Below, piece after piece: positions 1,787-8,349 of a stretch of DNA of 24,000 nucleotides. Below the pieces are notes generated by a model that had not been told where the DNA came from, ran no database searches, and was given only the letters and a program-made list of their open reading frames with translations. Position 1 is the first letter of the stretch; each line of letters starts with the position of its first letter. Position numbers and translations under genes: made by a program. The stretch is taken from assembly GCF_000963705.1 (NCBI RefSeq), contig NZ_LAJY01000137.1:1-24000 (forward strand), given 5' to 3'. The stretch comes from Elstera litoralis. Lineage in GTDB: Bacteria > Pseudomonadota > Alphaproteobacteria > Elsterales > Elsteraceae.

Positions 1787-1945
1787 AACTTGTTGGAACC
1801 TAAAGCGATTCCACACAGAATAGGGTCGCACGGGTCTACCCAGTTCCCGCGAAATGCGTTGGGGGAATCAGGATGGCCGTGATGGCAGAATGTGGCACGC
1901 GGACGGTGATCGCCGTCGGCCGCCTCTCAGAATGAGTGGCACACG

Positions 1946-4040
1946 ATGGATTTGGCTGAGACGGAAACGCTTGATCTCGAAAACCCTATGGATGCGGCAG
2001 CCCCCGCGCCCGTAGAGGAGCGAGACGAGGATACGGAAGGACGCTCGGACGCGGTTGTCGAGCTGAAGCAACGCTTTCTGATCTATTCGGATCAGGCGCT
2101 GCCCCAGCTCGATTCAGGCGATTCCTTTGCGTTCCACGCCCAATTGAAGGCAGATACCGCCCGGCCTTTCTTCGCTCTCCTACCGCCCGCCGAAATGCCG
2201 GCGCGGACGGAGATGCTGGAGGCGATGCGGAACCTCAATGTGCCCGGCATGCTGAAACTTGCCGAATGGGGCAAGATCTATTGGCCGCCGGAAAAGCGCT
2301 ACCGCTTCGTTATCGTTCTGGAGCGTCCGGGCGGGGTGCGGGTTTTCCCCGACATCACCGTGCCGCAAGCACCGCTGCAAGAAGAAGAGTTGATCTCGGG
2401 CTTCTTGACACCGCTGCTCCCGACGGTCCGCGAGTTTACCGGGCGCATGCTGTCGCACCGGGCCATCCGCCCCAATAATATCTTCTATGCCGATGCGGGC
2501 CGCCGCTCGATGGTTTTGGGTGAATGCGTTTCCTCGCCGCCCGCCTACGATCAACCGGCAGTTTTTCGAAACCATCGAAAGCGCGATGGCGCACCCGAGC
2601 GCGCGCGGCAATGGCAATAATACCGACGATCTTTACTCGTTGGGCATTACCATGCTGTTCCTGGTTCTGGGCCGTAACCCGGTTTCGGACCTCGATGATG
2701 ATCGTATTCTCGCCAATAAGATCGAGTTCGGCACTTATGCCACGCTCGTCGGCCAAGCCCGGTTGCCGCTGGCGCTGATGGAGCCCCTGCGCGGGCTGCT
2801 CACCGACGATCCGCGTGAGCGCTGGACGCTGCAAGACCTCGATATGTGGCTGGCCGGGCGGCGGCAGTCGCCGAAACAGCCCAAGCTGCCGCAGCGCGCC
2901 TCACGCCCCTTCGTCTTCAACGAAGTTGAATATTTCAACACGCGCAGCCTCGCCAATGCTTTGGCGAAGGACTATATCAATGCCGTCACCGTCGTGCGCT
3001 CCAAGCAGCTCGACGCCTGGTTGCGCCGCAGCCTGAACGACGAGCCGCGCGCCGAAGCGATGCAGCAGGCGGTTTCCTCCACTGCCAATCACATTAGCGC
3101 TGGGCGCGGGTCGGAAGACCGGCTGGTGGCGCGCGCTTGTGTGCCGCTCGATCCGGCAGCCCCGATTCGCTATCGCGGGTTCGGCCTGAACGTCGATGGT
3201 ATCGGCCCGGCGCTGGCCTCGGCGATGAGCCATCGCGAGCGGCGGCAGTTGATCGCCGAAGTCATTTCCTCGCGCCTGCCGATCCATTGGATTTCGGCGC
3301 AAGCCAAACCGCGCCCGGAAGACCTGCGCGCGGTGCAATTGCTCGACCGGCTTCCGGCGATGATCGATAATCCCGCCATCGGGTATGGCGTCGAGCGCTG
3401 CCTCTACGAACTCAATCCCGGCGAACATTGCCATAGCCCGATTTTCGAGCGGGAATATGTCGCCGATCTTTCGCACATCGTTCCGGCGCTGGAACGGATG
3501 GCGCGGCGCTCCAACCGGCCCGAATCGCCGCTCGATCGCCATATCGTCGCCTTCATCGCCGCCCGCGCGCGGCGGATGAATGAGGATGTGGTGAAATCGC
3601 TGCAAAATCCCGATACGGCCACGCGCGCGCTCGCAACCTTGCGCTTGCTCGCCTCCGTGCAGGATCAGACCAATAGCGGCCCGGCCCCAGCCTTGGCGCA
3701 GTGGATGGCGGGAATGCTCGGCGGGGTTGTCGGGTCTTTCCACCACCGCAAGCGCCGCGAAAAAATTGGCGAGCGGGTGCGGCGTGCGGCGATGGACGGG
3801 CAAATGTCCGAACTTCTGTCGGTCGTCGACGATGAAGCGGAACGCGCCTCCGATACGCGCGGCTTTAACGAAGCCGCCTCGGAATATCGCGCCATCGAAT
3901 ATCAGCTCAAGCAGTTCGAAACCGAAAAGCCGCGCCGGGACGATGAATCCCGCCACTTCGGGGAACAGTTGGCGGCGGCTATCGGTGGATTGCTGGTCAG
4001 TGTGGTGACGGCCGTCACCATTTTTGCGACGATGATGTAA
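1946..4040 (+). pseudogene. tail-anchored protein-kinase-fold protein (predicted pseudokinase), frame broken as sequenced by a 1-nt insertion in the T5 run 2562-2566
   Basis: ORFs 1946..2620 and 2487..4040 join as ...SSPPAYDQPAVF|ETIESAMAHP.... Kinase-like subdomains are visible: HRAIRPNNIF (HRDxKxxN-like with Asp replaced by Ala), VLGE in place of DFG, DDLYSLGITMLFLVLGRNP, and DPRERW. A long non-kinase region follows, ending in a hydrophobic C-terminal helix LAAAIGGLLVSVVTAVTIFATMM. About 697 aa once corrected. Confidence 0.7.
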
Positions 4041-4053
4041 AGGGGCTGTTCCG

Positions 4054-4542
4054 ATGGCTGATATGCTGCGACGCCCAGGCCTGAACCGTGGGCAGAAGAA
4101 GAAAACCTCCTCCGTGGCACTCTTGGCCTGGATCATCGTGCCGGTGCTGATGGTTTTTGCCTGGAAGGTGGCCATTCTGGTAACGCTCGGCATGCTGCCG
4201 ACCTTGGTTGCCCTGGTGATCGACCGCCGCCCGGAAAAATATGCGGCCTATTGCGTCGGCGGTTTCAACCTCTGCGGCCTGGTGCCGTGGGTGGTGAAGC
4301 TTTTCGTTGATGGTCAAACCGGCCTTGCGCTGCAACATATTATGACCAACCCCTTCTCGTGGCTGGTGATCTATGGGGCGGCGGCAATGGGCTGGTTGGT
4401 CTTCTCCTGGACGCCGGAGCTGGTACTGCGCATGACCGCCTTCCGCGACCGCCAGGAAATTTCCTCGCTGCAAAAGCGCCAGGAAACCTTAGTGGAAGAA
4501 TGGGGGCCGGATATTATTCCGCCGCGTGCCGAAGAGTTCTAA
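4054..4542 (+). CDS. small integral membrane protein (about 4 TM segments), function unknown
   Basis: 162-aa ORF starting 13 nt after the kinase-like gene. It has four hydrophobic stretches (LLAWIIVPVLMVFAW, VAILVTLGMLPTLVALVI, YCVGGFNLCGLVPWVV, WLVIYGAAAMGWLVFSW) and is followed by a strong terminator. I recognise no family. Confidence 0.6.
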   Translation: MADMLRRPGLNRGQKKKTSSVALLAWIIVPVLMVFAWKVAILVTLGMLPTLVALVIDRRPEKYAAYCVGGFNLCGLVPWVVKLFVDGQTGLALQHIMTNPFSWLVIYGAAAMGWLVFSWTPELVLRMTAFRDRQEISSLQKRQETLVEEWGPDIIPPRAEEF

Positions 4543-4553
4543 ACACTGATATG

Positions 4554-4595
4554 AAAAACCCCCGCCGAACCTATGTTCGGCGGGGGTTTTCCTTT
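4554..4595. terminator. bidirectional rho-independent terminator
   Basis: 12-bp perfect GC-rich stem CCCCCGCCGAAC (4559-4570) / GTTCGGCGGGGG (4575-4586) with a 4-nt loop. An A-run lies upstream and a T-run downstream on both strands. It sits between the convergent membrane-protein gene (+) and the rsr/Y-RNA unit (-). Confidence 0.85.
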
Positions 4596-4609
4596 TCAGC
4601 CGCTTTTCA

Positions 4610-4723
4610 GTGCGACGAGGAAAGATTGAGTAGCAGCTTTCCCGTTTCCAGGAGCCGGGCTTGAACCGACATCTTCCCCCGCATTGGGGGCTGCTGTCCC
4701 AGGAACTCAACCCGCATTCGCAC
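4610..4723 (-). ncRNA. Y-RNA-like RNA with tRNA-like core (YrlA-type candidate), unit 2
   Basis: Minus-strand read. The closing helix is GTGCGA/TCGCAC and the inner helix is GGTTGAGT/ACTCAATC. A hairpin CCCCC-AATGC-GGGGG (4676-4690) follows, then a T-arm GTCGG-TTCAAGC-CCGGC (4654-4670), then a GAAA-tetraloop helix CCTG-GAAA-CGGG (4641-4652). It is co-linear with unit 1, with compensatory changes. It lies downstream of rsr, as known bacterial Y RNAs do. Confidence 0.6.
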
Positions 4724-4732
4724 CGAAGCGAA

Positions 4733-4857
4733 GGTGAGACGACGAAAGCCGATTGGGTAAGAGCTTCCCAGTTTCCCAGGACCGGATTTGAACCGGCACC
4801 CTTCCGCCCGTAAAGGCGGCTGCTCTACCAAGGAACCCAACCGATATTCGTCTCACC
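4733..4857 (-). ncRNA. Y-RNA-like RNA with tRNA-like core (YrlA-type candidate), unit 1
   Basis: Minus-strand read. The closing helix is GGTGAGAC/GTCTCACC and the inner helix is CGGTTGGG/CCCAATCG. It has a D-arm-like GTTCCTTGGTAGAGCA and a hairpin CCGCC-TTTACG-GGCGG (4804-4819). A T-arm GCCGG-TTCAAAT-CCGGT (4781-4797) follows, then a GAAA-capped helix CCTGG-GAAA-CTGGG (4767-4780). There is no canonical acceptor stem or CCA end. Confidence 0.65.
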
Positions 4858-4863
4858 CAACCG

Positions 4864-4981
4864 CGGGCGACGAAGGCTGGATTGAGGAAATGTGGGTCTG
4901 GTCTTAGGGGTGGGATGGCAAATGCCCCCCGCCCCCGGCCAAACTGGTCACAATCCCAGTACCCCAATCCGCATTCGCCCG
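4864..4981 (-). ncRNA. Y-RNA-like RNA without a tRNA-like core (YrlB-like candidate), unit 0
   Basis: Minus-strand read. The closing helix is CGGGCGA/TCGCCCG and the inner helix is GGATTGGGG/CCTCAATCC (one G-U). It shares the 5'-side CGAAT and 3'-side TTCGTCG loop motifs with units 1 and 2, but its central module differs: an ACTGG-GATTGTGA-CCAGT hairpin plus a G-run/C-run hairpin. Confidence 0.45.
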
Positions 4982-4990
4982 ATGCTCTAG

Positions 4991-5015
4991 CGCGCCTTGG
5001 CAAACTCAAGACGCG
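4991..5015 (-). other. 9-bp stem-loop immediately after the rsr stop codon
   Basis: Minus-strand CGCGTCTTG-AGTTTGC-CAAGGCGCG. One pair is a U-G wobble on the minus transcript but would be a C-A mismatch on the plus strand, so it folds better in the rsr sense. No U-tract follows. Confidence 0.5.
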
Positions 5016-6554
5016 CTAAACCGAAGTCTCCTTAATCAAACCCACCCAATCGCCCCCAGACTCCCGGGCGACAAAGCGGTGCATTGCCCCGAACATCCCA
5101 TCGGTAAAACCGCCGAGGTTGAGAATATCGGCGCGTTCCGGCGCTTGGGACGTCCCCAGGGCCTGAAGATCGATGCAGATCAACCGGGCTTCCGGGTTGC
5201 GCGCCTTCACCTCCTCCCAGGCCGCCAACAGCGCGGTACGCTCCGGCTGCGGCGCATCCGCCCAAGATTGATTATCCGAGAGGATAATCACCAGATCCAC
5301 CGCCGTCCGCAGTTCCACCAACGCCCGCAACGGCGCCGAAACCGCCGTGCCATTACCCTTCAGAGCCGCCAGCCGTGCGTGATTCGTCCCGAAATTCGCC
5401 TGCGGATCGAGCGTGATCGGCTGTACCCCCAAATCGAACGGCAGCACGCCAGCCTGCGGATTCTTGCGCAGAATCGCCACCGTCAGCAGCGCAGCCACAT
5501 CGATGCAGAGGAGCTTCGAACTGGCCGACTGCCGGTCTCCGGTCACGGGCGTCTGCATCGAGGGTGAAATATCCGGGCAAATCACTACCCGCCCCGGCAG
5601 TGCCGGAACTTCGGCCAGCGATTCCTCCAAAACCCCCAAGAGGGCAGCCTTGATCAGTTTCGGCACACGGGATTTAAGCGAGGCCAGGGCGATGAGCGCC
5701 TGGTGCGGCATGAGCTTGGCTTTCCGCGCCGCTGCCAGATTGCCCAGACGCGCGGCAACCCGCTCGGTCACGCCTGGAACGGCAAAGGCTCCATGCGCCG
5801 TCAGCGCATTCAGGTTCACCCGCAGCCCGTGCCAGCCCATCCGCTCGCTAAGCTCGGCCCACTGCGCCCCGGTCAACGGACGATGGGTGAGCCATTCGAA
5901 GGGAACCGGCGGCAAAGGCTGCGTCGAGTCCCGCTTCCAGGCCTCAAAGGCGGCAACTTCGGGCGGAAGCGCGGCAAGATCATAAGGCTTGCCGATCAAC
6001 CACCCGTAGAAGGCGCGCCGCGTCGCATCGGCGGGGCGCGGATGAACCAGCCGCACAATGTCGGCCAAGGACGGGTCTTTTCCCGTCGCCGCCTGAAGCA
6101 AAACCGGCATTGGGACTTCCTCCAGCCAGCGCTGCACTAGCCGCTTCGGGCGGGTGCCGAAGGATTTGCGGCCAACCCGGCCCGAACGCACAATCTGAAC
6201 GAAGGTCCGCAGCATCCGCCCGCTATCGATAACGGCGCGAAACACCGGAACCGACAAATCCGGCGCGGCGCGGGTGAGATAGGCCGTTAACAGGGCCGGC
6301 ATATCCTTCATCCGGGCCGTGTGGCGGGCGTAAATCGCCGTTTGCGCCACAAAGATCGGATCGACCTGCGCCGCCGCCGCCAGAACCGCCGTAAGTTGAT
6401 CCTCCGCCTTGCCGTAAAAGCCATCATAGAGCGTGCCTGTGCAGGCCATCTGCGCCAGAAGATGCTCCGCCCCATAGGCATAGGCCAGCGCCCCTTCCTG
6501 GTTACGCGAATGCCCTGTCGGCACTGCCGGGGCAAAAAGCTGGGGATTGGCCAT
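5016..6554 (-). CDS. rsr: Ro60-related protein Rsr (TROVE domain plus C-terminal vWA domain)
   Basis: The ORF is 518 aa in the track. I prefer the ATG at 6554, which has AGGAGG 7 nt upstream, giving 512 aa (MANPQLFAP...). The TROVE-like N-terminal two thirds include GALAYAYGAEHLLAQMACTGTLYDGFYGKAEDQL and FVAQTAIYARHTARMKD. The C-terminal vWA has the MIDAS-type motif DISPS. The gene is adjacent to structured RNAs and divergent from rtcR. Confidence 0.85.
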   Translation of the reverse strand: MANPQLFAPAVPTGHSRNQEGALAYAYGAEHLLAQMACTGTLYDGFYGKAEDQLTAVLAAAAQVDPIFVAQTAIYARHTARMKDMPALLTAYLTRAAPDLSVPVFRAVIDSGRMLRTFVQIVRSGRVGRKSFGTRPKRLVQRWLEEVPMPVLLQAATGKDPSLADIVRLVHPRPADATRRAFYGWLIGKPYDLAALPPEVAAFEAWKRDSTQPLPPVPFEWLTHRPLTGAQWAELSERMGWHGLRVNLNALTAHGAFAVPGVTERVAARLGNLAAARKAKLMPHQALIALASLKSRVPKLIKAALLGVLEESLAEVPALPGRVVICPDISPSMQTPVTGDRQSASSKLLCIDVAALLTVAILRKNPQAGVLPFDLGVQPITLDPQANFGTNHARLAALKGNGTAVSAPLRALVELRTAVDLVIILSDNQSWADAPQPERTALLAAWEEVKARNPEARLICIDLQALGTSQAPERADILNLGGFTDGMFGAMHRFVARESGGDWVGLIKETSV

Positions 6555-6587
6555 CGGAACCTCCTGTCTCACGAATGTGATGAGAAC

Positions 6588-6603
6588 TGCAGGCGGCGTG
6601 CCA
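6588..6603 (-). promoter_or_regulatory. sigma54 (-24/-12) promoter for rsr
   Basis: The minus strand reads TGGCACG-CCGC-CTGCA, against the consensus TGGCACG-N4-TTGCW. GG is at 6602-6601 and GC at 6590-6589, which is exact spacing. The GC dinucleotide is about 35 nt upstream of the rsr ATG. The divergent gene encodes a sigma54 activator. Confidence 0.75.
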
Positions 6604-6739: not shown

Positions 6740-8349
6740 ATGTCTCGCCCAACCTGCGTTATTGGCTTTCTGGGGTCCAATCTGGACGCGCGCGGCGGAA
6801 CCCGCTGGTCCCGCTGGCGGCCCACCATCGGCCTCTGTCATCAGCCGATCTGCGGGTGGACCGGCTGGTTCTTCTGTATCGAACGCCCCATACCGCGCTA
6901 GCGAACCAGGTTGTTGCCGACCTTGCCGAGGTTTCACCGGAAACGCGCGTTGACCTGCGCTGCCTGGATTTCGACGACCCGTGGAGTTTTGAGGAGGTTT
7001 ATGGGCGGCTGCTGGATTTCGCCCGCGCCTATCCTTTCCAGCCCGACCGGGAGGATTATTTAGTCCACATCACGACCGGAACCCATGTTGCGCAGATCTG
7101 CCTGTTCTTGCTAACCGAGGCGCGGTTTATGCCGGGGCGCTTGGCGCAGACCTTTCCCGATACCGATGGGCGCGGAGGCGGGCGCGGCAAGTGGGCGGCG
7201 ATCGATCTTGATCTGTCGCGGTACGATAGCATCGCCCGCCGTTTTGCTGAGGCGGCGCAGGCCGATGCCTCCTTCCTGAAGTCCGGCATTGCCACGCGCA
7301 ACCCCGCTTTCAATCGGCTGATTGCCGATATTGAAACCGTAGTGTTGGGCAGCCGCGCCCCGATCCTGCTGACAGGGCCGACCGGGGCGGGAAAAACCCA
7401 ACTCGCGCGCCGCATTTATGCGCTCAAAAAGCTGAAACATCAGGTTTCCGGGGCTTTTGTTGAGGTCAATTGTGCCACCTTGCGCGGCGATGGGGCGATG
7501 TCCGCCCTCTTCGGGCATCGGCGCGGGGCTTTCACGGGGGCTATCCAGGACCGCCCCGGCCTGCTGCGCACCGCCGATAAGGGCCTGCTGTTTCTCGACG
7601 AGATCGGCGAACTTGGGCTGGACGAGCAGGCCATGATGCTGCGCGCGCTGGAGGAAAAGCGCTTTCTGCCCGTGGGGGCCGATCTCGAAGTCGGTTCGGA
7701 GTTTCAGTTGATCGCCGGGACCAACCGCGATTTGGGGACCGCCGTTGCCGCCGGGCGGTTCCGCGAGGATCTCTATGCCCGCCTCAATCTCTGGACCTTC
7801 CGTCTGCCCGGCCTTGCCGACCGGCGCGAGGATATCGAACCCAATTTGGCCTATGAGGTGGCGCGGTTCGCCGAGCGCGAGGGCCGCAGCCTGCGCTTTA
7901 CCCGTGAGGCGGAAGCGCGCTACCTGCGCTTTGCCCTGTCGGATGGGGCGCGCTGGACCGGCAATTTTCGGGATCTTGCGGCAAGCCTCACGCGCATGGG
8001 AACCCTTGCCCCCGCCGGACGGATCGATCTTGAAACCGTGGAGGCCGAAATTCTACGGCTAACGGCCTTATGGCAGGGCAGCAGCGGGGGGGCTGCGGAG
8101 GATTCGTTAAGCACGCTCGGCTTTGGCCCCGATGCCTTGGATTTGTTCGACCGGGTTCAATTGGCCGAAGTCGTGCGCGTCTGCCGGGCCGCGCGCAGCG
8201 CGTCGGACGCGGGGCGCACCCTGTTTTCCGCCTCGCGCAGCCAGCGGCGCAGCACCAATGACGCCGACCGGCTACGCAAATATCTCGCGCGCTTCGGGCT
8301 CGATTGGGCAGGGATCACCAGCGGCGGGGCCGCACCACCAGGGCCTTGA
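6740..8349 (+). pseudogene. rtcR: sigma54-dependent transcriptional activator RtcR (CARF domain + AAA+ + HTH), frame broken as sequenced by a 1-nt deletion near 6847
   Basis: ATG 6740 gives MSRPTCVIGFLGSNLDARGGTRWSRWRPTIGLCHQP, an RtcR-type N-terminus, and then runs to a stop. The -1 frame continues DLRVDRLVLLYRTPH... into ORF 6856..8349. That ORF has Walker A GPTGAGKT, the sigma54-contact motif GAFTGA, and the C-terminal NDADRLRKYLARFGL. Restoring one G (CCG GAT) gives about 536 aa. Confidence 0.85.

What the first reader, a model, noticed from the sequence alone, without database searches (positions are those of the whole stretch)
4610..4857. Two tandem tRNA-like Y RNAs supported by compensatory base changes
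On the minus strand, units 1 (4733-4857) and 2 (4610-4723) are co-linear, with helices kept by covariation. The inner helix is CGGTTGGG/CCCAATCG in unit 1 and GGTTGAGT/ACTCAATC in unit 2 (G-C becomes A-T). A 4-bp helix is GAGC/GCTC versus CAGC/GCTG (G-C becomes C-G). The hairpins are CCGCC..GGCGG versus CCCCC..GGGGG. The T-stems are GCCGG/CCGGT versus GTCGG/CCGGC. Both units carry a T-loop matching GGTTCRANYC. Unit 1 has a D-loop-like TTGGTAGAGCA and unit 2 a more degenerate CTGGGACAGCA. In both, a GAAA-tetraloop-capped helix directly after the T-arm takes the place of an open acceptor stem, so there is no CCA end. In my fold the long closing stem enters through the D-arm side of the junction, but my memory of the published YrlA topology is not firm enough to say whether this matches it. 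Two tRNA-like copies in tandem next to rsr is notable.
Basis: partly seen in the sequence, partly recalled or inferred. Interest (0 to 1): 0.8.

Follow-up and report, generated by a model that had tools for sequence, protein, structure and literature searches.

The report
Rearranged tRNA-like Y RNAs beside rsr
Just downstream of the bacterial Ro60 gene (rsr) lie two tandem small-RNA genes that imitate a tRNA rearranged differently from the published YrlA Y RNAs, and about 56 of 80 related alphaproteobacterial rsr loci carry the same rearranged design.

Summary
On the minus strand, units 4857-4733 and 4725-4608 are co-linear and fold into the same six helices.

They lie between rsr (6554-5016) and an intrinsic terminator, downstream of a sigma54-type promoter and opposite a divergent rtcR. 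A third Y-like unit without a T-loop (4980-4865) precedes them.

A covariance model built only from 14 units in other genera hits both window units end to end (68.6 and 67.0 bits, E about 1e-17). A structure-blind alignment of 60 units gives 96.4% paired cells and 21 of 32 pairs with double changes. Slid controls give 34-48% paired cells and 7-10 such pairs.

The interpretation "tRNA-like Y RNAs" holds, but they are not YrlA as defined. Rfam RF02553 finds nothing here, although it finds canonical YrlA in sister loci. In YrlA the Ro60-binding stem stands in for the anticodon stem. Here it enters the D-loop between tRNA positions 15 and 18, the D-stem forms from distant strands, and both the anticodon-like and acceptor-like arms are capped hairpins.

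Tandem copies are ordinary, since relatives carry 2-6 units. The topology seems undescribed, making this a new variant of a known kind. Expression, Rsr binding and function are inferred.

The parts
6856..8349 (+). rtcR: sigma54-dependent activator with RtcR (CARF-type) N-terminal domain, divergent from rsr
   Evidence: Pfam PF06956 RtcR 1.3e-58 and PF00158 Sigma54_activat 3.1e-47. A divergent rtcR is present in 78 of 80 related loci.
6588..6603 (-). sigma54-type promoter element TGGCACGCCGCCTGCA (-24 GG / -12 GC), about 35 nt upstream of the rsr ATG
   Evidence: One mismatch to TGGCAC-N5-TTGCW. The window-wide count of such matches is not above chance, but the same element lies upstream of rsr in 57 of 67 full-flank loci.
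5016..6554 (-). rsr (Ro60 orthologue). Probable start ATG 6554 with an AGGAG Shine-Dalgarno sequence; the mechanical ORF list starts at GTG 6572.
   Evidence: PF25045 vWA_Ro60 8.9e-14. It is 83% identical to a protein of an Elstera sp. MAG that NCBI names 'vWA domain-containing protein', and about 60% identical to proteins named 60 kDa SS-A/Ro ribonucleoprotein or TROVE domain-containing protein. Sequence.
4989..5015 (-). Hairpin directly after the rsr stop codon (GCGCGUCUUG...CAAGGCGCGC)
   Evidence: Read. L001 and L201 keep it with compensatory changes. Function not tested.
4865..4980 (-). Unit 0: a third Y-RNA-like unit. It has a perfect GGCGAAUG motif and two closing stems (GGGCGA/UCGCCC; CGGAUUGGGG/CCUCAAUCC) but no T-loop.
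   Evidence: R1 gives 22.5 bits, E 1.8e-4, through the stems only. Fold. In L202 the stems are conserved but the inner module is replaced by unrelated sequence.
4733..4857 (-). Unit 1: D-loop-permuted tRNA-like Y RNA. Outer stem GGUGAGAC 4857-4850 / GUCUCACC 4740-4733, with the GACGAA motif at 4852-4847. Inner stem 4843-4835 / 4758-4750.
   Evidence: R1 68.6 bits over model positions 1-120. Minimum-free-energy fold z = -2.75. Covariation.
4822..4829 (-). Unit 1: 3' half of the D-arm. G18 G19 equivalents 4829-4828, A21 at 4826, D-stem 3' strand GAGC 4825-4822.
   Evidence: Sequence. In the 60-unit alignment these columns are G 52/60, G 59/60 and A 60/60.
4804..4819 (-). Unit 1: anticodon-arm-like capped hairpin CCGCC(U) UUAC (G)GGCGG, with a 4-6 nt loop and no 7-nt anticodon loop
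   Evidence: All 5 pairs of this helix show double changes across the family.
4781..4797 (-). Unit 1: T-arm GCCGG UUCAAAU CCGGU
   Evidence: U54, C56, A58 and the G53:C61 pair are invariant in all 60 units.
4761..4780 (-). Unit 1: acceptor-like hairpin CCUGG-GAAA-CUGGG (4780-4767) stacked directly on the T-stem, then AA (positions 8-9), then D-stem 5' strand GCUC (4764-4761)
   Evidence: There are zero nt between the T-stem and this hairpin, and exactly 2 nt before the D-stem strand, as in tRNA numbering.
4608..4725 (-). Unit 2: second D-loop-permuted tRNA-like Y RNA.
- Outer stem CGGUGCGA 4725-4718 / UCGCACUG 4615-4608.
- Inner stem 4713-4705 / 4631-4624.
- GG 4700-4699, then CAGC 4696-4693.
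- Anticodon-like hairpin 4690-4676.
- T-arm 4670-4654.
- Acceptor-like hairpin UCCUG-GAAA-CGGGA 4653-4640.
- GCUG 4637-4634.
   Evidence: R1 67.0 bits over model positions 1-120. Fold. The D-stem pair is G-C in unit 1 and C-G in unit 2, in the window and in L001, L201 and L202.
4554..4590 (.). Intrinsic terminator hairpin CCCCCGCCGAAC-AUAG-GUUCGGCGGGGG followed by UUUUU. It closes the rsr-Y RNA transcription unit and is usable from both directions.
   Evidence: Sequence. It matches terminator portions of several Rfam models. There are compensatory changes in L001 and L201 (CCGGAC/GUCCGG). The simple terminator scan missed it.

Best explanation
Units 1 and 2 are genes for Ro60 (Rsr)-associated Y RNAs of a distinct topological class.

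[quoted passage not shown] It carries the GNCGAA-type motif that Ro60 proteins contact.

Module 2 is a tRNA mimic that is circularly permuted in the D-loop. In tRNA numbering the chain runs:
- G18 G19 .. A21, then the D-stem 3' strand;
- a capped anticodon-like arm, then the variable region;
- the T-arm, then a 5-bp acceptor-like helix capped by GAAA;
- two nt (positions 8-9), then the D-stem 5' strand and positions 14-15, then back into the closing stem.

The D-stem therefore forms from two distant strands. The Ro60-binding stem leaves the tRNA body at D-loop positions 16-17, not at the anticodon end as in YrlA.

Inferred mechanism:
- RtcR, activated by damaged-tRNA signals, drives the sigma54 promoter.
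- rsr and the three Y units are made as one transcript ending at the terminator, and the units are cut out.
- Rsr binds each closing stem.
- The capped tRNA-like body, which has no free ends, recruits or competes for a tRNA-recognising factor, such as PNPase, a tRNA-modifying enzyme, a tRNA nuclease or an RNA ligase. It thereby tethers or gates Rsr.

The sequence, structure, conservation, synteny, promoter and terminator motifs are shown. Transcription, processing, Rsr binding and the effector are inferred.
For: - Location and strand: the units lie between the rsr stop codon and a terminator, with rtcR divergent.
- A sigma54 element lies upstream of rsr here and in 57 of 67 relatives.
- Model R1, built from 14 Sphingomonadales and Nitrospirillum units without window sequence, matches both units full length at 68.6 and 67.0 bits.
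- The same class occurs once, at 101 bits or more, in 56 of 80 rsr loci, always downstream of rsr on its strand.
- RNAalifold finds the six-helix structure de novo on the seed alignment and on the Elstera-type alignment.
- On a structure-blind MAFFT alignment of 60 units, 96.4% of cells pair and 21 of 32 pairs have double changes, against 34-48% and 7-10 in slid controls.
- Orthologue comparison shows compensatory changes in the inner stems, the acceptor-like hairpins and the T-stem.
- The split D-stem covaries within units: GAGC/GCUC in unit 1 and CAGC/GCUG in unit 2. This fits pairing within a unit, not between neighbouring units.
- tRNA tertiary-interaction nucleotides are kept in the class: U8 56/60, A9 60, A14 56, G15 56, G18 52, G19 59, A21 60, G46 60, C48 56, G53/U54/C56/A58/C61 60.
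- Frame-breaking indels between orthologues rule out coding.
- Literature: bacterial Y RNAs lie next to rsr, carry GNCGAAN0-1G and a tRNA-like domain, and are co-transcribed with rsr under RtcR (PMC4201824, PMC7790460).
Against: - No expression, processing or Rsr-binding data exist for this organism or for this class.
- The GNCGAAN0-1G motif is only partly met in unit 1 (GACGAA then UAUCG) and unit 2 (UGCGAAUG).
- The window units have lost several tertiary-interaction nucleotides that the class otherwise keeps. They have A8, U or C at 14, U15 and U48, so their tRNA fold may be looser.
- R1 scores of 67-69 bits overlap those of other unit types that share only the stems and the T-arm. Class assignment therefore rests on the alignments, not on the score.
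- The D-stem is nearly invariant, and only one of its four pairs covaries.
- The locus lacks rtcB and rtcA, so the functional setting may differ from the Salmonella operon.
Confidence: 0.8

Rival explanations
1. The units are cis-acting parts of the rsr mRNA rather than independent Rsr-bound RNAs. They would be tRNA-like 'punctuation' that directs endonucleolytic processing, or that protects the rsr 3' end from exonucleases.
For: - They are co-oriented with rsr, with no promoter of their own detected.
- In most relatives they sit between rsr and rtcB.
- M. smegmatis YrlA is cleaved by RNase P (PMC4201824).
- A conserved hairpin follows the rsr stop codon.
Against: - Each unit has its own closing stem with the Ro60-type motif, which a processing signal would not need.
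- The acceptor-like helix is a closed 5-bp hairpin with a GNRA loop, a poor RNase P substrate by the criteria in PMC4201824.
- In Salmonella, Y RNAs at the same operon position are stable and Rsr-bound (PMC4201824, PMC7790460).
- The two roles do not exclude each other.
Confidence: 0.1
2. They are ordinary members of the published YrlA family (Rfam RF02553) that merely look unusual.
For: They share the Ro60 motif, the T-arm, the capped acceptor-like helix and the D-stem sequence with YrlA. RF02553 gives a sub-threshold 37 bits to a Sphingomonas unit of the same class.
Against: - RF02553 (gathering score 69) gives no hit in the window at gathering threshold, nor at E up to 10 on 4500-5100.
- The same model scores 70-77 bits on canonical units in L015, L052, L068 and L076.
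- The defining order V-T-AS-full D stem-loop, with the closing stem as anticodon stem (PMC4201824; 10.1101/312249), is not present.
Confidence: 0.04
3. They are decayed tRNA genes or tRNA pseudogenes that happen to lie near rsr.
For: The Rfam tRNA model gives 27.8 bits (gathering score 29) at 4773-4834. Genuine tRNA genes flank rsr in some relatives.
Against: - ARAGORN finds no tRNA.
- Unit 2 has no tRNA-model hit.
- There is no open acceptor stem and no 7-nt anticodon loop.
- The same permuted architecture with Ro60-type stems is conserved with covariation across genera, always downstream of rsr.
Confidence: 0.03
4. A recent tandem duplication of non-functional DNA whose similarity and apparent helices reflect common descent only.
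For: The two units are 79% identical.
Against: Differences between the paralogues, and between orthologues, fall in compensating pairs: 11 of 32 pairs, against 1-3 in slid controls. An independent model from other genera matches at E about 1e-17.
Confidence: 0.02

Closest known systems
YrlA (Y RNA-like A; Rfam RF02553; Chen et al. 2014, PMC4201824; crystal structure PDB 6cu1, 10.1101/312249)
   Same: - Encoded beside rsr on the same strand, under RtcR/sigma54 control.
- 5'/3' closing stem with the GNCGAA-type Ro60 motif.
- T-arm GGUUCRAnnCC.
- Acceptor-like helix closed by a loop, with no CCA end.
- D-stem sequence GCUC/GAGC and G18 G19 equivalents.
- A circularly permuted tRNA mimic.
   Different: - In YrlA the permutation point is the anticodon loop: the closing stem is the anticodon stem, and the D-arm is a local stem-loop 3' of the acceptor-like helix.
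- Here the permutation point is the D-loop, between positions 15 and 18. The D-stem is long-range and the anticodon-like arm is a capped hairpin.
- RF02553 does not detect the window units.
Deinococcus radiodurans Yrn1 (PMC4201824)
   Same: As described in the paper, the order along the RNA is D-loop-like features, then a 5-bp 'anticodon arm', then the T-arm. This is the same 5'-to-3' order as the first half of the window units, and it differs from YrlA.
   Different: Yrn1 is described as lacking a full D-arm and a variable arm, and as having no acceptor-like hairpin after the T-arm. Here a capped acceptor-like helix and the missing D-stem strand follow the T-arm and complete the cloverleaf. 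No sequence comparison with Yrn1 was made here.
Circularly permuted tRNA genes of red and green algae and an archaeon (cited in 10.1101/312249: Soma 2007, Maruyama 2010, Chan 2011)
   Same: The 3' part of the tRNA is encoded before the 5' part, joined through a closed acceptor stem.
   Different: Those transcripts are processed into real tRNAs. Here the acceptor-like helix is only 5 bp with a tetraloop, the anticodon loop is absent, and the opening carries a Ro60-binding stem. From memory only, some algal permuted genes also break in the D-loop. This was not checked.
Other unit types in the same arrays
   Same: They share the closing stems (GGCGAAUGCC..GGGACUACA / GUCUCGCC..CUCGUCGCC) and the T-arm. 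Type C also has its D-stem strands on either side of the T-arm.
   Different: - Type A is canonical YrlA.
- Type D has only a T-arm.
- Type C has an extra helix GGUCC/GGACC and a minimal acceptor-like element.
- The window carries none of these three types. It has two class-B units plus unit 0.

Membership tests
Bacterial Y RNA (Rsr/Ro60-associated ncRNA, functional class) | Encoded within a few kb of rsr, on the same strand | tested here: met
   Units at 4857-4608(-) begin 158 nt after the rsr stop at 5016(-).
Bacterial Y RNA (Rsr/Ro60-associated ncRNA, functional class) | 5' and 3' ends pair into a stem carrying GNCGAAN0-1G near the 5' end (PMC4201824) | tested here: inconclusive
   The stems are present and covary. 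The motif is exact in unit 0 (GGCGAAUG). It is partial in unit 1 (GACGAA then UAUCG) and unit 2 (UGCGAAUG).
Bacterial Y RNA (Rsr/Ro60-associated ncRNA, functional class) | Accumulates as a discrete small RNA bound by Rsr | not testable with these tools
   Needs Northern blot or small-RNA-seq, plus Rsr immunoprecipitation.
YrlA (Rfam RF02553) | Reaches the curated gathering score (69 bits) of the family model | tested here: not met
   There are no RF02553 hits in the window at gathering threshold, or at E up to 10 on 4500-5100. As a positive control, canonical units in L015, L052, L068 and L076 score 70-77 bits.
YrlA (Rfam RF02553) | Module order V - T stem-loop - acceptor-like stem-loop - D stem-loop, with the closing stem in the place of the anticodon stem | tested here: not met
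   There is no local D stem-loop. GAGC lies 5' of the T-arm and GCUC lies 3' of the acceptor-like hairpin. The anticodon-like arm is a closed hairpin.
YrlA (Rfam RF02553) | tRNA-like T-arm and D-loop GG able to form the elbow | tested here: met
   GGUUCAAAUCC and GGUUCAAGCCC are present, with GG at 4829-4828 and 4700-4699. The matching columns are conserved in the class. The tertiary contacts themselves are not testable here.
tRNA gene (Rfam RF00005 / ARAGORN) | Detected by tRNA models; open 7-bp acceptor stem; 7-nt anticodon loop | tested here: not met
   ARAGORN finds none. RF00005 gives 27.8 bits, below the gathering score of 29, for unit 1 only, and by deleting the D-arm. The acceptor-like helix is a closed 5-bp hairpin, and the anticodon-like loops are 4-6 nt.
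D-loop-permuted Y RNA class defined here (model R1) | Full-length match to a covariance model built from members in other genera, with all six helices formed | tested here: met
   68.6 and 67.0 bits over model positions 1-120. 96.9% of cells pair in the Elstera-type set. However, scores of 55-67 bits also occur for other unit types, so the alignment, not the score, carries the assignment.
D-loop-permuted Y RNA class defined here (model R1) | Class-wide tRNA core nucleotides U8, A14, G15:C48 | tested here: not met
   The window and Elstera-type units have A8, U or C at 14, U15 and U48, where 56 of 60 class members have U8, A14, G15 and C48. They form a divergent subgroup.

The most novel reading that the evidence does not exclude
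The units represent an unrecognised second architecture of tRNA-mimicking Y RNA. The Ro60-binding stem is inserted in the D-loop (positions 16-17) of an otherwise complete cloverleaf with both ends capped. The class is conserved across alphaproteobacterial rtcR-rsr-(rtcBA) operons alongside canonical YrlA. In the Elstera lineage it is duplicated and is the only tRNA-like Y RNA, in an rsr locus that has no rtcBA. Ro60 would then sit near the hinge or elbow of the tRNA mimic rather than about one anticodon arm away. This implies either a different effector or a different geometry for the same effector. It would also fit the dimeric-tRNA origin model, with a second permutation frame.
Probability: 0.5. 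Interest if true: 0.65.

Novelty: new variant of a known kind. Interest (0 to 1): 0.55.

Why it matters
Y RNAs are thought to work by tethering the Ro60 ring to an effector. For the tRNA-like YrlA class the effector is still unknown.

A second, naturally occurring permutation keeps the T-arm, the D-stem sequence and the elbow nucleotides, but attaches Ro60 at a different point of the tRNA body. This gives a built-in comparison:
- Whatever both designs expose (elbow, D and T stems) is the likely recognition surface.
- Whatever differs (a free versus an occupied anticodon arm, and the distance to Ro60) can be tested directly.

It also shows that the curated YrlA model misses a widespread class, so surveys of which bacteria have Y RNAs are incomplete.

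The Elstera-type locus (rtcR, rsr and Y RNAs only, without the ligase and cyclase genes) is a minimal system. It could separate Rsr/Y RNA function from RNA repair by RtcB and RtcA.

Tried and rejected
It returned only chance matches, because model R1 finds nothing in L081-L160. The single metagenome scan was thus spent without gain.
2. A viral-contig scan with a class-specific pattern likewise gave only chance matches. Presence in phages remains untested.
3. The T-loop motif count in the window is not significant on its own.
4. The simple terminator scan missed the obvious terminator at 4554-4590, so it was read from the sequence.
5. MAFFT mis-registered the anticodon-like arm by one column in the seven-sequence Elstera-type alignment. 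I used the model-based alignment for that set, which leans towards the structure. I relied on the structure-blind 60-sequence alignment and on RNAalifold as independent checks.
6. Burroughs and Aravind 2016 and the supplementary tables of Chen et al. 2014 are not held. I could not check whether class-B coordinates were already listed there as 'YrlA-like'.
7. Considered and rejected: the 100-aa ORF at 4707-5009(-) as a gene, because of frame-breaking indels between orthologues. Also rejected: D-stem pairing between neighbouring units, because the covarying pair matches within units only.
Full report
**What is there**

Read on the minus strand, the region between the stop codon of a 512-aa gene (6554-5016) and a strong hairpin-plus-U-run terminator (4590-4554) holds no conserved reading frame. 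Orthologous regions differ by indels of 1, 2, 3 and 4 nt.

The gene is an Ro60/Rsr orthologue. It hits Pfam PF25045 (Ro60 vWA domain). Its closest homologue, at 83% identity, is a protein of an Elstera sp. MAG that NCBI names 'vWA domain-containing protein'. At about 60% identity come Sphingomonas and Nitrospirillum proteins named 60 kDa SS-A/Ro ribonucleoprotein or TROVE domain-containing protein.

Divergently transcribed is rtcR (6856-8349; PF06956 plus a sigma54-interaction domain). A sigma54-type element, TGGCACGCCGCCTGCA, lies about 35 nt upstream of the rsr ATG.

**The observation**

Units 1 (4857-4733) and 2 (4725-4608) align co-linearly at 79% identity.

Each folds on its own into the same architecture: outer stem, inner stem, then a four-way junction of a 4-5 bp helix, a capped hairpin, a T-arm and a GAAA-capped hairpin (z = -2.75 and -2.13).

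The T-loop motif count alone is not beyond chance. The whole units are.

**Independent evidence from relatives**

I fetched 80 genomic loci encoding Rsr relatives, mostly Sphingomonadales and Rhodospirillales.
- In almost all of them, 2-6 T-loop-containing units follow rsr on its strand at spacings of about 110-220 nt, mostly 120-140.
- rtcR is divergent in 78 of 80 loci.
- rtcB follows the array in 76 of 80 loci.
- The sigma54 element is upstream of rsr in 57 of 67 full-flank loci.

The units fall into several types. One type has the same module order as the window units.
- I aligned 14 such units from other genera. RNAalifold recovered the six-helix structure de novo.
- I built covariance model R1 from that alignment, without any window sequence.
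- R1 matches both window units over all 120 model positions, at 68.6 and 67.0 bits, E about 1e-17.
- R1 finds exactly one unit scoring 101 bits or more in 56 of 80 loci.

On a structure-blind MAFFT alignment of 60 such units, including the window's, 96.4% of cells form standard pairs and 21 of 32 pairs show changes on both sides. Slid controls give 34-48% and 7-10 pairs, and none of 500 shuffles reaches the observed values.

For the four Elstera-type loci (window, L001, L201, L202), 96.9% of cells pair and 11 of 32 pairs have double changes, against 1-3 in slid controls. RNAalifold again finds the same helices.

**What it is**

Each unit has two modules.

The first is the closing stem with a GNCGAA-type motif on its 5' strand. 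Chen et al. (PMC4201824) describe this as the likely Rsr contact in bacterial Y RNAs.

The second is a tRNA mimic. In tRNA numbering, the class consensus reads as follows.
- After the stem comes UACA, then G18 G19 nn A21, then GAGC (22-25) and R26.
- Next is a 5-6 bp hairpin, then AGGUC (44-48).
- Next is the T-arm, GGCGG UUCAAnU CCGCC.
- With no spacer, a 5-bp helix capped by a GNRA loop follows.
- Then come U8 A9, GCUC (10-13), A14 G15 and an A-rich linker back into the stem.

The nucleotides that build the tRNA core and elbow are nearly invariant across the 60 units. These are U8, A9, A14, G15/C48, G18, G19, A21, G46, G53, U54, C56, A58 and C61.

The anticodon-like hairpin has loops of 4-9 nt, often GNRA or UUCG. 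It is therefore a structural arm, not an anticodon loop.

The D-stem is made from two strands about 60 nt apart. It is almost invariant (GAGC/GCUC, the same sequence as in canonical YrlA D-arms). Its first pair is G-C in unit 1 and C-G in unit 2, in all four Elstera-type loci. That matches pairing within a unit and not pairing between neighbouring units.

**Comparison with the known family**

Published YrlA has the order V region, T stem-loop, acceptor-like stem-loop, D stem-loop. Its 5' and 3' ends form the stem that corresponds to the anticodon stem (PMC4201824). In the Salmonella crystal structure these elements are AS 50-64, TSL 33-49, DSL 67-81 and AC 15-27 plus 83-93 (10.1101/312249). 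Both designs are circularly permuted tRNAs with a closed acceptor end. YrlA is opened at the anticodon loop, whereas the window units are opened in the D-loop between positions 15 and 18.

Rfam's YrlA model RF02553 (gathering score 69) behaves accordingly.
- It scores 70-77 bits on canonical units in L015, L052, L068 and L076.
- It scores only 37 bits on a Sphingomonas unit of the permuted class, and 27.6 bits on another split type.
- It finds nothing in the window, even at E up to 10.

The Rfam tRNA model reaches 27.8 bits (gathering score 29) on unit 1, by deleting the D-arm. ARAGORN finds no tRNA.

So the units work like YrlA-type Y RNAs but fail the membership tests for YrlA and for tRNA.

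D. radiodurans Yrn1 is described as having D-loop features, an anticodon-like arm and then a T-arm in that order. It lacks a full D-arm and the capped acceptor-like helix (PMC4201824). The window units look like a complete version of that order. I did not compare sequences with Yrn1.

**How the window differs from the rest of the class**
- It has two class-B units. So do the Elstera MAG loci L001 and L201 and the metagenomic contig L202.
- It has no canonical YrlA.
- It has no rtcB, rlaP or rtcA. The transcription unit appears to be rsr, unit 0, unit 1, unit 2 and the terminator.
- Its units are a divergent subgroup. They have A8, U or C at 14, U15 and U48 in place of U8, A14, G15 and C48, and they lack the A-rich linker.

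**Mechanism**

The following are shown:
- the architecture and its covariation;
- the conserved position and strand;
- the promoter and terminator motifs.

The following are inferred from the Salmonella, Deinococcus and Mycobacterium work (PMC4201824, PMC7790460):
- RtcR, activated by tRNA fragments ending in a cyclic phosphate, drives sigma54 transcription of rsr plus the Y units.
- The units are excised.
- Rsr binds the closing stems.
- The end-less tRNA-like body engages a tRNA-recognising factor.

Because the Ro60 stem leaves the tRNA body at the D-loop rather than the anticodon end, Ro60 would sit close to the hinge or elbow. This is a geometric difference that should matter for any tethered effector. 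It rests on general knowledge that tRNA positions 16-17 are variable and solvent-exposed, and it was not modelled here.

**Novelty**

Tandem Y RNAs next to rsr are already known, and they are the rule in these lineages. The D-loop-entry topology is what appears new.
- It is not covered by Rfam 15.
- I found no description of it in the searchable literature.

There is a caveat. Some Sphingomonas copies would probably have passed the E-value cut-off of the 2014 survey, and may be listed there as 'YrlA-like' without comment. I could not read that supplement, nor the 2016 and 2018 papers that discuss Y RNA diversity.

I therefore rate this a new variant of a known kind. Interest is moderate.

Noticed in passing
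window 4865-4980 (-): A third Y-RNA-like unit (unit 0) sits directly after rsr. It has a perfect GGCGAAUG motif and two closing stems but no T-loop. In L202, whose Rsr is 98% identical, the stems are kept, but the inner 70 nt or so are replaced by unrelated sequence and 39 nt are inserted before unit 1. The effector module behaves like a swappable cassette.
   Followed up: partly
window 4989-5015 (-): A 10-bp hairpin (GCGCGUCUUG..CAAGGCGCGC) starts right after the rsr stop codon. L001 and L201 keep it with compensatory changes. It may be a processing or mRNA-stabilising element.
   Followed up: no
window 1-24000; L001, L201, L202: The Elstera-type loci have rtcR, rsr and Y RNAs but no rtcB, rlaP or rtcA. 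By contrast, 76 of 80 related loci have rtcB immediately after the Y array. This is an RtcR-controlled locus without the repair enzymes.
   Followed up: partly
window 1892-4037 (+) and 4054-4542 (+): Two genes converge on the Y RNA terminator. One encodes a 162-aa protein with no family match. The other is a homologue of a 715-aa protein that is a single ORF in L001. In the window it is split over two frames near 2541-2566, so it is either a frameshift or a sequencing error. Its only family signal is a weak kinase-like NCBIfam hit.
   Followed up: partly
L052:5561-5704, L015:5574-5723 and the first unit after rsr in most Sphingomonadales loci: Another unit type (type C) also has its D-stem strands split around the T-arm..GAGUAAAGC.. 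lies upstream and UAGCUU downstream. It has an extra helix GGUCC/GGACC that covaries (UA 8, CG 7). RF02553 gives it only 27.6 bits. Split-D designs are therefore recurrent in these arrays.
   Followed up: partly
L015:6150-6224; L069 around 3920-3995; many loci near position 3955: In some relatives, genuine tRNA genes (proline-like, anticodon UGG by eye) lie between the sigma54 promoter and rsr, or at the end of the Y array. The Rfam tRNA model scores 61 bits in L015. This fits the idea that Y RNAs arose from neighbouring tRNAs.
   Followed up: no
A5 column 70 (for example L039, L002, L019, L031, L047): Eleven of 60 class-B units have C instead of U at the position equivalent to U55 (GGUCCAAC). 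Those copies cannot carry the T-loop pseudouridine.
   Followed up: no
window 6552-6572 (-): The mechanical ORF call starts rsr at GTG 6572. The ATG at 6554, preceded by AGGAG, matches the N-terminus MAN.. of homologues and the 512-aa length of the Elstera MAG protein.
   Followed up: partly
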